Notes under the pieces: generated by a model | What the model saw: only the letters and a program-made list of their open reading frames with translations | Databases searched by the model: none | Told to the model about the DNA's origin: nothing | Made by a program: the position numbers and the translations under genes | Part shown: positions 49,116 to 52,276 of the stretch, piece after piece | Layout of the letters: the number at the start of each line of letters is the position of its first letter | How positions within the stretch are numbered: position 1 is the stretch's first letter | NCBI RefSeq assembly: GCF_003790525.1 | Contig: NZ_CP033635.1 | Strand: one strand, 5' to 3' | Length of the DNA: 64,000 nt | DNA from: Escherichia coli | Lineage (GTDB): Bacteria > Pseudomonadota > Gammaproteobacteria > Enterobacterales > Enterobacteriaceae

Positions 49116-49979
<864 letters not shown>

Positions 49980-50000
49980 TCTTTTTTGCTTGAAAAATAA

Positions 50001-50031
50001 AGTCTTAGCGTTCTGCGTTAAGACTTTTTTC
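50001..50031 (+). terminator. Rho-independent terminator of kdsA
   Basis: 10-bp stem (one G-U pair), 5-nt loop, then TTTTT. Confidence 0.7.
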
Positions 50032-50044
50032 ATGGGTGCCGGAT

Positions 50045-50078
50045 ACAAAAAAGGCCGCAGGCTATTACCTCTGCGGCC
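50045..50078 (-). terminator. Rho-independent terminator of ldr copy 1
   Basis: Stem ggccgcag/ctgcggcc followed on the minus strand by a T-run. Confidence 0.65.
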
Positions 50079-50127
50079 GGTTTCGGGCGCATATTGCCAT
50101 CACGGCAGCCTGACGCCCGTTTTCACC

Positions 50128-50235
50128 TTACTTCCGGTTACGCCACCAGCTGACAATCGCTGCGGTAATAATTCCCGCCAGGATCGGTGCTGCCAGGTCG
50201 TGCCAGAAAGTCATGGCAAACTGCGTGAGCGTCAT
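50128..50235 (-). CDS. ldr: Type I toxin Ldr (35 aa), copy 1
   Basis: Minus-strand ORF MTLTQFAMTFWHDLAAPILAGIITAAIVSWWRNRK; below the 60-aa ORF-track cutoff. Confidence 0.8.
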   Translation of the reverse strand: MTLTQFAMTFWHDLAAPILAGIITAAIVSWWRNRK

Positions 50236-50285
50236 ATAGCCGCCTTGTTGTAATGACAACATTTTGCGGCTATTCTTGAATTGTT

Positions 50286-50350
50286 CTGGTTCAAGATTAG
50301 CCCCCGTTCTGTTGTCAGGTTGTACCTCTCAACGTGCGGGGGTTTTCTCT
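50286..50350 (+). ncRNA. rdl: Rdl antisense RNA (antitoxin), copy 1; boundaries approximate
   Basis: Antisense to the ldr leader; ends in a hairpin (cccccg...cggggg) followed by TTTTCTCTTT; placement from recalled Ldr/Rdl architecture. Confidence 0.4.
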
Positions 50351-50579
50351 TTCCAGCAACCAATGCCACCAGGGATAAAGCCCCCGCAACATTGCGCCTC
50401 ACCGGATAACTCCGGCTTGGTGTGGATACTACGTCTCAATTCATCTTCACTTCATCCCTGAAATGTTTGCAATGAAGAGTGCATTCCGGTTTTTCAACAG
50501 CTGTTACAGTCGTTTCATGAGTGCTCTGGATGATGCTTCCAGCTCGGGTTGCCAATATTTACTTGCAGAAGAGATAAAG

Positions 50580-50612
50580 ACAAAAAGGGCCGCAGGCTGT
50601 TACCCCTGCGGC
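50580..50612 (-). terminator. Rho-independent terminator of ldr copy 2
   Basis: Stem gggccgcagg/cctgcggcc followed on the minus strand by a T-run. Confidence 0.6.
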
Positions 50613-50662
50613 CGGTTTCGGGCGCATATTGCCATCACGGCAGCCTGACGCCCGTTTTCACC

Positions 50663-50770
50663 TTACTTCCGGTTACGCCACCAGCTGACAATCACTGCGG
50701 TAATAATCCCCGCCAGGATCGGTGCCGCCAGGTCGTGCCAGAAAATCATGGCAAACTGCGCGAGCGTCAT
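50663..50770 (-). CDS. ldr: Type I toxin Ldr (35 aa), copy 2
   Basis: Minus-strand ORF MTLAQFAMIFWHDLAAPILAGIITAVIVSWWRNRK. Confidence 0.8.
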   Translation of the reverse strand: MTLAQFAMIFWHDLAAPILAGIITAVIVSWWRNRK

Positions 50771-50821
50771 ATAGCCGCCTTGTTGTAATGACAACATTTT
50801 GCGGCTATTCTTGAATTGTTG

Positions 50822-50886
50822 ATGGTTCAAGATTAGCCCCCGTTCTGTTGTCAGGTTTTACCTCTCAACGTGCGGGGGTTTTCTCT
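50822..50886 (+). ncRNA. rdl: Rdl antisense RNA (antitoxin), copy 2; boundaries approximate
   Basis: Same hairpin plus U-tract as copy 1. Confidence 0.4.
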
Positions 50887-51175
50887 TTCCAGCAACCAAT
50901 GCCACCAGGGATAAAGCCCCCGCAACATTGCGCCTCACCGGATAACGCCGGCTTGGTGTGGATATTACGTCTCAATTCATCTTCACTTCATCCCTGAAAT
51001 GTTTGCAATAAAGAGTACATTCCGGCTTTTCAACAGCTGTTGCAGTGGTTTCGTGCAGGTTGTGGTACAGGCTCGCAATTCTGATTAACGACCTGTTCAG
51101 GTAGTATGAAGAAATACAATAAGCAGGAATTTATATTATCTCCCCCGATTTCTGTCATCAGAGGAGATATAACTG

Positions 51176-52276
51176 TCAGGCAAATATCGTCATCAAATAG
51201 GCGGCAAACAGTGCCAGATGCGCTGCGCCATTGAGCACGTTAGTTCGTCCGGTGGAGAAGGAGATATGGCACAGTACTAAAGAGGCCACCATCACCACCA
51301 TTTCTGGCGCACCAAGTGCAAACTGTAATTCGTTACCCGTCATAAAGGCAATTAACGTGACGACAGGTACGGTAAGCGAAATGGTTGCTAACACTGAACC
51401 AAAGAACAGATTCATCGCGCGCTGGACCTGGTTATTCAACACTGCTTTTAACGCACCTAAACCTTCCGGCGACAGAATCAACAGAGCCACCAGGAAGCCA
51501 GTAAAGGCGACAGGCGCATTCATGCTGTCGAGCAATGTCTCCAGCGAGCTGGCGTTCATTTTGGTCACCGCAATAACGGCAATCAGATGGATAATCAACC
51601 AGATAGCATGCCACAGGCTGCTATGGGCAGACGGTTTACCGTGATGCGGGTCGTCATCATCACTGTCATCTTCGTGCTCGTAGACAAACAAACTTTGATG
51701 CGTTTTGGTCTGGATCAGCAAAAATACGCCATACATTGCCGCAGAAATTAATGCTACCAGTAACGCCTGACCGGTTGAAAAATTCGCCGCAGGCAGAGCC
51801 ATTGGAAATACCAGTACGATTATCGCCAGGGGGAACAGCGCAATTAAATACTGCTTGATACCAAACAGATTCATATATTGGGTGGCAAACTTGCGTCCGC
51901 CCAACAATAATGAAAAGCCAACCAGCCCACCGGTAACAATCATAATGATTGAATAGAGCGTATCACGCATTAGCGTTGGCGCGGCGTCGCCGGTTGCCAT
52001 TAAAGCTGAAATCAAACTGACTTCAAGAATAACCACTGAAAGGCTAAGAATAAGCGAACCGTAAGGTTCTCCCAGGCGATGGGCTAATACGTCCGCATGA
52101 CGGACAACACTAAAGGCGCTACTTAAAATACCAATAAGAGCAAGAAGATTGATGCCAATGACCACTGGTAGTGTCTGGCTGCTTCCCCACAGGAACAGCA
52201 CTACCAGCGCCAGAACCGGGAAAATAAGCGAAGTCTCCTTGTGGCGGGTTTTTACCGCCTCTTGAGCATTTGACAT
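51176..52276 (-). CDS. chaA: Ca2+/H+ (Na+/H+) antiporter ChaA
   Basis: 366-aa CaCA-family membrane protein from MSNAQEAVKTRHKE; acidic loop DDSDDDD. Confidence 0.9.
   Translation of the reverse strand: MSNAQEAVKTRHKETSLIFPVLALVVLFLWGSSQTLPVVIGINLLALIGILSSAFSVVRHADVLAHRLGEPYGSLILSLSVVILEVSLISALMATGDAAPTLMRDTLYSIIMIVTGGLVGFSLLLGGRKFATQYMNLFGIKQYLIALFPLAIIVLVFPMALPAANFSTGQALLVALISAAMYGVFLLIQTKTHQSLFVYEHEDDSDDDDPHHGKPSAHSSLWHAIWLIIHLIAVIAVTKMNASSLETLLDSMNAPVAFTGFLVALLILSPEGLGALKAVLNNQVQRAMNLFFGSVLATISLTVPVVTLIAFMTGNELQFALGAPEMVVMVASLVLCHISFSTGRTNVLNGAAHLALFAAYLMTIFA

What the first reader, a model, noticed from the sequence alone, without database searches (positions are those of the whole stretch)
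50040..51100. Ldr/Rdl type I toxin-antitoxin tandem repeats present in two copies with diverged toxin peptides
Two direct repeats of about 535 bp each encode a 35-aa Ldr toxin on the minus strand (copy 1 MTLTQFAMTFWHDLAAPILAGIITAAIVSWWRNRK; copy 2 MTLAQFAMIFWHDLAAPILAGIITAVIVSWWRNRK) and an antisense Rdl-like RNA ending in a hairpin plus U-tract. I recall three units at this site in K-12, so copy number differs here, consistent with unequal recombination between repeats. The toxin ORFs are missed by the 60-aa ORF track.
Basis: partly seen in the sequence, partly recalled or inferred. Interest (0 to 1): 0.5.

Follow-up and report, generated by a model that had tools for sequence, protein, structure and literature searches.

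The report
Two-copy Ldr/Rdl toxin-antitoxin repeat
This is the well-known E. coli Ldr/Rdl small-toxin and antisense-RNA repeat between kdsA and chaA, here in a common natural two-copy form rather than the three copies of K-12, so it is real but ordinary.

Summary
Window 50045-51122 holds two tandem units with 535/536-bp spacing, between kdsA and chaA. Each unit also encodes a 66-nt Rdl antisense RNA on the plus strand (Rfam rdlD, 86.3 and 83.6 bits against a gathering score of 50).

K-12 MG1655 has three units (ldrA/B/C with rdlA/B/C) at the same site. The window stretch is 100% identical to E. coli SMS-3-5 and 22 other complete genomes, and RefSeq already annotates two Ldr toxins there. That makes an assembly collapse very unlikely.

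In an evenly spaced sample of 58 complete E. coli genomes, the kdsA-chaA gap indicates 1, 2, 3 or 4 units in 17, 18, 22 and 1 genomes. Unit-by-unit comparison shows mosaic units, as expected from unequal crossover and gene conversion.

Verdict: an already known type I toxin-antitoxin locus showing a common copy-number polymorphism. Interest is low. Two side observations remain untested. The two units differ in leader-ORF geometry, and a conserved 3' UTR element is predicted to pair with the ribosome-binding site and start codon.

The parts
49125..49979 (+). kdsA, the left flanking gene (not part of the element; fixes the synteny)
   Evidence: 284-aa ORF; annotated as kdsA in the identical SMS-3-5 stretch and in K-12
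50045..50579 (.). LDR unit 1 (K-12 LDR-A-like)
   Evidence: Direct-repeat families D1/D2, spacing 535/536; 97.9% identical to the K-12 ldrA unit
50045..50079 (-). Intrinsic terminator of the ldr-1 mRNA (GGCCGCAG...CUGCGGCC hairpin followed by U6)
   Evidence: Read directly from the sequence; hairpin predicted
50128..50235 (-). ldr-1, 35-aa toxin MTLTQFAMTFWHDLAAPILAGIITAAIVSWWRNRK (RefSeq WP_000176713.1)
   Evidence: Pfam PF13940 E 7.7e-25; annotated in SMS-3-5
50283..50348 (+). rdl-1 antisense RNA, complementary to positions -48 to -113 of the ldr-1 5' UTR
   Evidence: Rfam RF01813, 86.3 bits, gathering score 50; fold z -4.7; same position as K-12 rdlA; offsets
50045..50418 (-). Inferred ldr-1 mRNA (~374 nt). 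The 5' end is inferred from a TAGTAT -10-like hexamer at 50431-50426, not mapped
   Evidence: Inference from the sequence; fold z -6.6
50232..50402 (-). Leader ORF of unit 1 (GUG start, 56 aa). Its UGA stop overlaps the ldr-1 AUG (AUGA); it is an ldrX-like candidate
   Evidence: The assignment as ldrX is an inference; the ldrX model is an untested hypothesis in the literature (PMC4147584)
50580..51122 (.). LDR unit 2 (K-12 LDR-C-like); homology with unit 1 decays over the last ~65 nt
   Evidence: 96.5% identical to the K-12 ldrC unit; right-edge comparison
50578..50613 (-). Intrinsic terminator of the ldr-2 mRNA
   Evidence: Terminator scan: 9-bp stem, 8 GC pairs, followed by CTTTTTGTCT; fold
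50663..50770 (-). ldr-2, 35-aa toxin MTLAQFAMIFWHDLAAPILAGIITAVIVSWWRNRK (RefSeq WP_000170956.1)
   Evidence: Pfam PF13940 E 2.9e-24; annotated in SMS-3-5
50819..50884 (+). rdl-2 antisense RNA, complementary to positions -49 to -114 of the ldr-2 5' UTR
   Evidence: Rfam RF01813, 83.6 bits; fold z -5.3; 4 of 66 nt differ from rdl-1
50580..50954 (-). Inferred ldr-2 mRNA (~375 nt; TAATAT -10-like hexamer at 50967-50962)
   Evidence: Inference from the sequence; fold z -5.3
51176..52276 (-). chaA, the right flanking gene (not part of the element; fixes the synteny)
   Evidence: ORF; annotated as chaA in the identical SMS-3-5 stretch

Best explanation
This is the chromosomal LDR (long direct repeat) locus of E. 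coli between kdsA and chaA. It is a tandem array of Ldr/Rdl type I toxin-antitoxin modules, present here as a natural two-unit allele.

Each unit is transcribed on the minus strand into a roughly 375-nt, highly structured mRNA that encodes a 35-aa single-pass inner-membrane peptide. On the plus strand each unit gives a 66-nt antisense RNA, Rdl. Rdl is perfectly complementary to positions -48 to -113 of its own ldr 5' UTR and does not cover the Shine-Dalgarno sequence or the AUG.

Rdl pairing keeps toxin translation off. The step by which it does so is not established. The published hypothesis is a block of a leader ORF (ldrX) whose translation is coupled to ldr, with RNase III cleavage of the duplex. 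If translated, Ldr inserts into the inner membrane, collapses ATP synthesis and arrests growth.

Copy number at this site varies between strains through unequal homologous recombination and gene conversion between the ~535-bp units.

Shown here: the anatomy, family membership, synteny, allele frequency and mosaicism. Taken from the K-12 literature: toxicity, membrane action and repression by Rdl. Inferred: promoters, transcript ends and the way Rdl blocks translation.
For: The tandem units and both ORFs are present.

Pfam Ldr_toxin matches at E 7.7e-25 and 2.9e-24. The LdrD NMR structure 5LBJ matches at E 3.7e-10.

Rfam rdlD scores 86.3 and 83.6 bits against a gathering score of 50. Both RNAs fold into a hairpin followed by a U-tract.

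The K-12 annotation of ldrA/B/C and rdlA/B/C shows the same spacing and the same flanking genes.

The stretch is 100% identical to SMS-3-5 and 22 other complete genomes, with two Ldr CDSs annotated.

In 58 sampled genomes the gap lengths are 661, 1196, 1731 and 2263 bp, which fits 126 + n x 535 bp. One example of each class was checked against annotation and Rfam.

Units are mosaic. The single-unit allele has an A-like left part and a C-like right edge. The left part of the K-12 ldrB unit is identical to that of O157 unit 2. Units 3 and 4 of the four-unit strain are identical over the ldr and rdl/leader segments and differ only at the right edge.

Literature: Rdl overlaps the 5' UTR and the ldrX model is a hypothesis (PMC4147584). 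LdrA is a membrane toxin that blocks ATP synthesis and is neutralised by YajC (PMC12643268; PMC8309996). The ldrD/rdlD duplex is cut by RNase III in vivo (PMC7373196). Ldr loci have undergone lineage-specific duplications (PMC2887945).
Against: Nothing contradicts the identification, but several points are open.

No expression data exist for this strain.

The consensus sigma-70 scan found no promoter at its threshold. The promoters I name match only 8 of 12 positions or have a poor -35.

NCBIfam returned no family for the peptides, although PGAP names them as Ldr family.

The ldrX coupling step cannot be identical in the two units. Unit 2 lacks an ORF overlapping the ldr AUG and instead has an in-frame upstream UUG.

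The effect of the A4T, I9T and A26V substitutions on toxicity is unknown.
Confidence: 0.96

Rival explanations
1. The two-unit array is an assembly artefact: the strain really has three or more units, and a short-read assembler collapsed one ~535-bp repeat.
For: Tandem 535-bp repeats at 90-97% identity are the kind of sequence short-read assemblers collapse. K-12 has three units. The provenance of the window's reads is unknown.
Against: The 1351-bp kdsA-chaA stretch is 100% identical in 23 independent complete genomes from different laboratories and hosts, SMS-3-5 among them. A two-unit gap is seen in 18 of 58 evenly sampled complete genomes, including O157:H7. The two units differ at about 50 positions and each has its own specific flank, so the junctions are unambiguous. 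E. whittamii and Escherichia sp. E1V33 also carry two units at this site.
Confidence: 0.02
2. One or both units are decaying relics: the sequences are recognisable, but the toxin or the antisense RNA is no longer functional, as with degenerate chromosomal hok loci.
For: Relics do exist in relatives. The Pseudocitrobacter vendiensis ldr has a premature stop, and O157:H7 unit 2 has a 6-nt deletion in the Rdl stem. Window unit 2 carries the uncommon A26V change and unit 1 carries A4T. Function was not tested here.
Against: Both ORFs are intact and full length, with strong Pfam scores. Both Rdl RNAs match the Rfam model end to end with intact stems. The Shine-Dalgarno sequences, terminators and 5'/3' UTR elements are conserved with K-12 and with the ldrD group. 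Two of the 5 nucleotide differences between the ORFs are synonymous and the substitutions are conservative.
Confidence: 0.05
3. The Ldr/Rdl identification stands, but repression does not work through an ldrX leader ORF. Instead the full-length ldr mRNA is translationally inert because a conserved 3' UTR element pairs with the leader, the Shine-Dalgarno sequence and the AUG, much like hok fold-back inhibition. Rdl would then act on a processed or refolded form.
For: The full-length mRNAs fold far better than shuffled sequences (z -6.6 and -5.3), with the Shine-Dalgarno sequence and AUG paired to the 3' UTR. RNAalifold on 15 homologs, including the ldrD group and Citrobacter, recovers the same long-range helices. 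Of the cells in these helices, 98% are paired, against 30-53% when partners are slid. The UTRs are more conserved than the CDS between the LdrA-C and LdrD groups. The ORF overlapping the ldr AUG is not conserved between unit types. Reviews state that the mechanism is unknown (PMC8309996).
Against: There is only one compensatory change. The shuffle controls are not decisive (25-35 of 500 shuffles reach the observed value), so support comes from conservation rather than covariation. A local hairpin (UGUUGU-CAUU-ACAACA) could compete for the same leader bases; this is my own reading of the sequence. I could not read Kawano 2012 or Masachis and Darfeuille 2018, so the idea may already be published.
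Confidence: 0.3

Closest known systems
E. coli K-12 LDR-A/B/C (ldrA-rdlA, ldrB-rdlB, ldrC-rdlC) between kdsA and chaA
   Same: The flanking genes, orientation, unit length (~535 bp) and internal layout are the same: terminator, 35-aa ldr, and rdl antisense to the 5' UTR. Unit 1 is 97.9% identical to the ldrA unit and unit 2 is 96.5% identical to the ldrC unit.
   Different: There are two units instead of three, with no ldrB-like internal unit. The peptides differ from K-12 LdrA/LdrC by A4T plus I9T (unit 1) and by A26V (unit 2).
RefSeq annotation of E. coli SMS-3-5 (NC_010498.1, ECSMS35_RS09755 and RS09750) and 22 other complete genomes
   Same: The sequence is 100% identical over kdsA-chaA. 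The same two Ldr proteins, WP_000176713.1 and WP_000170956.1, are annotated.
   Different: RefSeq annotates only the toxin CDSs there; the two Rdl RNAs are not annotated.
ldrD-rdlD of K-12 (the experimentally characterised LDR-D module)
   Same: The family and architecture are the same. The 5' and 3' UTRs are nearly identical, and Rdl matches the Rfam model built on rdlD. The peptide aligns end to end with the LdrD structure 5LBJ.
   Different: It sits at a different locus (bcsG-yhjV) as a single unit. The coding sequence is clearly diverged; reviews give 57% identity between LdrA and LdrD (PMC8309996).
hok/sok (plasmid R1 and chromosomal hok loci)
   Same: It works in a similar way. A stable, structured toxin mRNA has a long 5' UTR, and a short cis-antisense RNA targets the leader rather than the toxin's Shine-Dalgarno sequence. 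A leader-ORF coupling model has been proposed, and 5'-3' pairing is predicted.
   Different: The toxin families are unrelated. The Rfam sok model scores only 31.4 and 27 bits against a gathering score of 59. This is not a member.

Membership tests
Ldr/Rdl type I toxin-antitoxin (LDR) | A 35-aa hydrophobic peptide of the Ldr family (Pfam PF13940) | tested here: met
   Both peptides match positions 1-35 of the 35-position model, at E 7.7e-25 and 2.9e-24. They also match LdrD 5LBJ at E 3.7e-10.
Ldr/Rdl type I toxin-antitoxin (LDR) | A cis-encoded ~66-nt antisense RNA of the Rdl family (Rfam RF01813) on the opposite strand | tested here: met
   Scores are 86.3 and 83.6 bits against a gathering score of 50, with all 66 model positions matched. 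Both fold as a hairpin followed by a U-tract.
Ldr/Rdl type I toxin-antitoxin (LDR) | Rdl overlaps the ldr 5' UTR and does not cover the Shine-Dalgarno sequence or the start codon | tested here: met
   Rdl covers mRNA positions -48 to -113 in unit 1 and -49 to -114 in unit 2, relative to the AUG. This agrees with the description in PMC4147584.
Ldr/Rdl type I toxin-antitoxin (LDR) | The module lies within a ~530-bp long direct repeat, at the kdsA-chaA site of LDR-A/B/C | tested here: met
   Spacing is 535/536 bp. The flanking genes are the same as in K-12, and units are 96.5-97.9% identical to K-12 units.
Ldr/Rdl type I toxin-antitoxin (LDR) | Overexpressed peptide is toxic, and the cognate Rdl represses it | not testable with these tools
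   This is known for K-12 LdrD/RdlD and LdrA. It has not been tested for the A4T/I9T and A26V variants.
Ldr/Rdl type I toxin-antitoxin (LDR) | Both transcripts are actually made (a stable ldr mRNA and an unstable Rdl) | not testable with these tools
   Only terminators and -10-like hexamers can be read from the sequence. The sigma-70 consensus scan found no site at its threshold.
Fst/Ldr superfamily | [quoted passage not shown] | tested here: met
   Both peptides end ...IVSWWRNRK. The signature is described.
hok/sok | A match to the hok-family toxin or to the Rfam sok model at or above the gathering score | tested here: not met
   The sok model RF01794 scores 31.4 and 27 bits against a gathering score of 59. 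The peptide hits Ldr_toxin and no Hok family.

The most novel reading that the evidence does not exclude
The most novel reading concerns how ldr is kept silent, not the locus itself. Across the LdrA-C and LdrD groups, a conserved 3' UTR element is predicted to pair with the leader, the Shine-Dalgarno sequence and the AUG, giving a hok-like fold-back lock. The proposed ldrX leader ORF is not conserved in frame between unit types. Unit 1 has an ORF whose stop overlaps the ldr AUG, while unit 2 (also the type in the sampled single-unit allele L003 and O157 unit 1) has an upstream UUG in frame with ldr, predicting a 55-aa extended form. If this is real and unpublished, it would change the accepted, untested model of Rdl action.
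Probability: 0.15. Interest if true: 0.35.

Novelty: already known. Interest (0 to 1): 0.1.

Why it matters
It matters little as a discovery. The locus, its toxin family, its antisense RNA and strain-to-strain differences in Ldr gene number are all documented, and this allele's two toxin genes are already annotated in RefSeq.

Three practical points follow:
- Automated annotation of this allele lists the two toxin CDSs but not the two Rdl RNAs.
- Copy number at kdsA-chaA (1, 2, 3 or 4 units) is a simple, frequent structural polymorphism. It tracks lineage and could confuse short-read assemblies.
- How Rdl blocks translation is still unknown according to reviews. The natural variation between units seen here (leader ORF overlapping versus in frame; conserved 3' UTR pairing) offers ready-made test cases.

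Tried and rejected
- NCBIfam scan of both peptides returned no family. This reflects a gap in the library or the shortness of the peptides, and is not evidence against membership, because Pfam matches strongly.
- The sigma-70 consensus scan found no promoter in 49950-51200. I therefore give only weak, hand-read candidates: rdl TTGTAA-17-TATTCT, and an ldr -10 of TAGTAT (unit 1) or TAATAT (unit 2).
- Tandem Repeats Finder reported nothing because its longest period is 500. The repeat finder did detect the array.
- The genome-contig scan with the 17-nt Rdl core gave 28 loci. Most are chance hits in unrelated MAGs; my estimate is about 35 expected by chance for a 17-mer in 298 Gb. Only the Escherichia, Citrobacter and Pseudocitrobacter loci are real.
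- Kawano 2012 (RNA Biol), Fozo 2008 (MMBR) and Masachis and Darfeuille 2018 are not held. I could not check the exact published coordinates of ldrX or whether the 3' UTR pairing has been described.
- The covariation test of the long-range pairing is inconclusive because the sequences are too conserved, with only one compensatory pair.
- hok/sok membership was considered because of sub-threshold Rfam sok hits on the ldr leader, and rejected.
- Whether two units is the ancestral state could not be decided. Outgroups carry two units (E. whittamii, Escherichia sp. E1V33) or one (Pseudocitrobacter), but their units are homogenised within each genome.

Full report
**1. What is in the sequence**

Between the stop codon of a 284-aa ORF (49125-49979, +) and the stop codon of a minus-strand ORF that starts at 51176 lies a 1196-bp gap. 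It contains two direct repeats. Repeat family D2 is 50045-50285 vs 50580-50820 (97% identical, spacing 535). Family D1 is 50287-50586 vs 50823-51122 (86%, spacing 536).

Each unit carries a minus-strand 35-codon ORF, at 50128-50235 and 50663-50770. The ORFs differ at five nucleotides. Three change the peptide (T4A, T9I, A26V) and two are synonymous.

Downstream of each ORF on the minus strand is a GC-rich hairpin followed by a U run. On the plus strand each unit matches the whole Rfam rdlD model: 50283-50348 at 86.3 bits and 50819-50884 at 83.6 bits, against a gathering score of 50. Both fold into a single long hairpin ending in UUUUCU, with z-scores of -4.7 and -5.3.

**2. What it is**

Both peptides match Pfam Ldr_toxin PF13940 end to end, at E 7.7e-25 and 2.9e-24. 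They also match the solved LdrD structure 5LBJ. NCBIfam gave no hit.

The K-12 MG1655 record shows, between kdsA and chaA, ldrA-rdlA, ldrB-rdlB and ldrC-rdlC. The internal spacing and orientation are identical to the window.

Window unit 1 is 97.9% identical to the K-12 ldrA unit. Unit 2 is 96.5% identical to the ldrC unit. The two window units are 90.1% identical to each other. In both units Rdl is complementary to the ldr 5' UTR, at positions -48 to -113 and -49 to -114, and does not reach the Shine-Dalgarno sequence or the AUG. This matches the description of the family in PMC4147584.

**3. Is the two-copy state real and unusual?**

The 1351-bp stretch 49900-51250 is 100% identical in 23 complete E. 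coli genomes, including SMS-3-5. RefSeq annotates two 'type I toxin-antitoxin system toxin Ldr family protein' genes there, WP_000176713.1 and WP_000170956.1, but no Rdl RNAs.

To estimate allele frequencies I joined 2 kb of left flank to 2 kb of right flank. I then read the span between the two flanks in 58 genomes taken at even steps down the ranking of 5,424 matching genomes. The gaps fall into four classes that fit 126 + n x 535 bp:

| Gap length | Units | Genomes |
|---|---|---|
| ~661 bp | 1 | 17 (one with an IS200 insertion) |
| ~1196 bp | 2 | 18 (two with an IS insertion) |
| ~1731 bp | 3 | 22 |
| 2263 bp | 4 | 1 |

One example of each class was checked against its RefSeq annotation. 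For the 1-, 2- and 4-unit examples the number of Rfam rdlD hits equals the number of ldr genes in every case; K-12 annotates three rdl genes.

O157:H7 also has two units. So do E. whittamii and Escherichia sp. E1V33 at the same kdsA-chaA site, while Pseudocitrobacter vendiensis has one. Two units is thus one of three common states, and an assembly collapse is very unlikely. The sample is weighted by what has been sequenced and is not a population estimate.

**4. How the copy number changes**

I cut 14 units from six alleles and compared them in three segments.

- All first units share one left edge.
- All last units share one right edge. That edge differs at 29-39 positions in the last ~70 nt from the inter-unit spacer type.
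- The single-unit allele has an A-type left part (1 mismatch to K-12 unit A) and a C-type right edge (1 mismatch to window unit 2).
- The left part of K-12 unit B is identical to that of O157 unit 2 and of unit 2 in the four-unit strain.
- Units 3 and 4 of the four-unit strain are identical over the ldr and rdl/leader segments and differ only at the right edge.

Window unit 1 also shares a few sites with K-12 unit B, so no single crossover explains the difference from K-12. The direction of change, loss here or gain in the K-12 lineage, is unresolved. Lineage-specific duplication and loss of Ldr loci was already described by Fozo et al. 2010 (PMC2887945).

**5. How it works**

From the K-12 literature:
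- LdrD and LdrA are toxic when overexpressed.
- LdrA is a single-pass inner-membrane peptide that causes a rapid ATP drop and growth arrest, and it is neutralised by YajC.
- RdlD represses ldrD translation.
- The ldrD-rdlD duplex is an RNase III substrate in vivo.

These points come from PMC4147584, PMC12643268, PMC8309996 and PMC7373196.

The step by which Rdl blocks translation is stated to be unknown. The standing hypothesis is a leader ORF, ldrX, whose translation is coupled to ldr and blocked by Rdl.

In the window, unit 1 has a GUG-initiated 56-aa ORF (50232-50402, -). It is preceded by GGAG, and its UGA stop overlaps the ldr AUG (AUGA). Unit 2 has a stop after 26 codons, and a 1-nt insertion places an upstream UUG (50830) in frame with ldr, giving a 55-aa ORF. 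The unit 2 geometry also occurs in the single-unit allele, in O157 unit 1 and in E. whittamii. A different 25-aa ORF (MLRGLYPWWHWLLERENPRTLRG-T/K-T) is kept in 15 of 16 units and ends inside the Rdl target. I could not read the paper that defines ldrX, so I do not say which of these it is.

**6. A side observation on the mRNA**

The inferred full-length mRNAs fold much better than shuffled sequences, with z-scores of -6.6 and -5.3. In the predicted fold, the leader, the Shine-Dalgarno sequence and the AUG pair with a segment of the 3' UTR.

I aligned 15 ldr mRNAs, including K-12 ldrD, its relatives in E. whittamii and Escherichia sp. E1V33, and Citrobacter sedlakii. The 5' and 3' UTRs are more conserved than the coding sequence. 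RNAalifold recovers the same long-range helices.

For those 32 pairs, 98% of cells are paired, against 30-53% when partners are slid by 1-3 columns. There is only one compensatory change, and 25-35 of 500 shuffles reach the observed values. This is evidence from conservation and not from covariation. It resembles fold-back inhibition in hok mRNA. Sub-threshold hits of the Rfam sok model on the ldr leaders (31.4 and 27 bits, gathering score 59) point the same way but do not make this a hok/sok member. Whether this is already published I could not establish.

**7. Verdict**

The object is an already known type I toxin-antitoxin locus, in a common and already annotated two-unit allele. Interest is low. 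The only route to anything new is the unresolved mechanism of Rdl action, for which the natural variation between unit types could be used.

Noticed in passing
window 50232-50402 (-) versus 50663-50830 (-): The two units differ in leader-ORF geometry. Unit 1 has a 56-aa GUG ORF whose UGA stop overlaps the ldr AUG. Unit 2 has an early stop plus a 1-nt insertion that puts an upstream UUG in frame with ldr, giving a 55-aa ORF. The unit 2 type is also the one found in the sampled single-unit allele (L003), O157 unit 1 and E. whittamii.
   Followed up: partly
window 50045-50418 (-) and 50580-50954 (-); alignment A1: The leader, Shine-Dalgarno sequence and AUG are predicted to pair at long range with a conserved 3' UTR element. 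The 5' and 3' UTRs are more conserved than the CDS between the LdrA-C and LdrD groups. Pairing is kept in 98% of cells, but only one compensatory change was found.
   Followed up: partly
window 50233-50385 (-) and 50768-50921 (-): Sub-threshold matches of the Rfam sok model RF01794 (31.4 and 27 bits, gathering score 59) cover the ldr leaders and end on the ldr AUG.
   Followed up: no
window 6970-7048 (+): Rfam C0299 sRNA at 106.7 bits. It is the only other Rfam family above its gathering score in the window; no tRNA genes were found.
   Followed up: no
L005 2839-2898 (O157:H7 FRIK804, unit 2): The Rdl of the second unit has a 6-nt deletion in the 5' arm of its stem. It scores 66.6 bits against 80-92 for the other Rdl copies, so this antitoxin may be weakened.
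   Followed up: no
L006 2062-2653 (strain E26); also H35 and H37: An IS200C element with its STnc490 RNA is inserted between kdsA and the first LDR unit in some strains. This adds ~709 bp to the gap.
   Followed up: partly
L022 1443-1535 (Pseudocitrobacter vendiensis): The kdsA-chaA site holds one LDR unit. Its ldr has a premature stop (…IVGW*) while its Rdl is intact at 85 bits. The site is therefore old, and toxin decay occurs in some lineages.
   Followed up: partly
L004 2147-2254 (strain 127, unit 1 of 4): This Ldr carries H12D within the otherwise invariant FWHDL motif.
   Followed up: no
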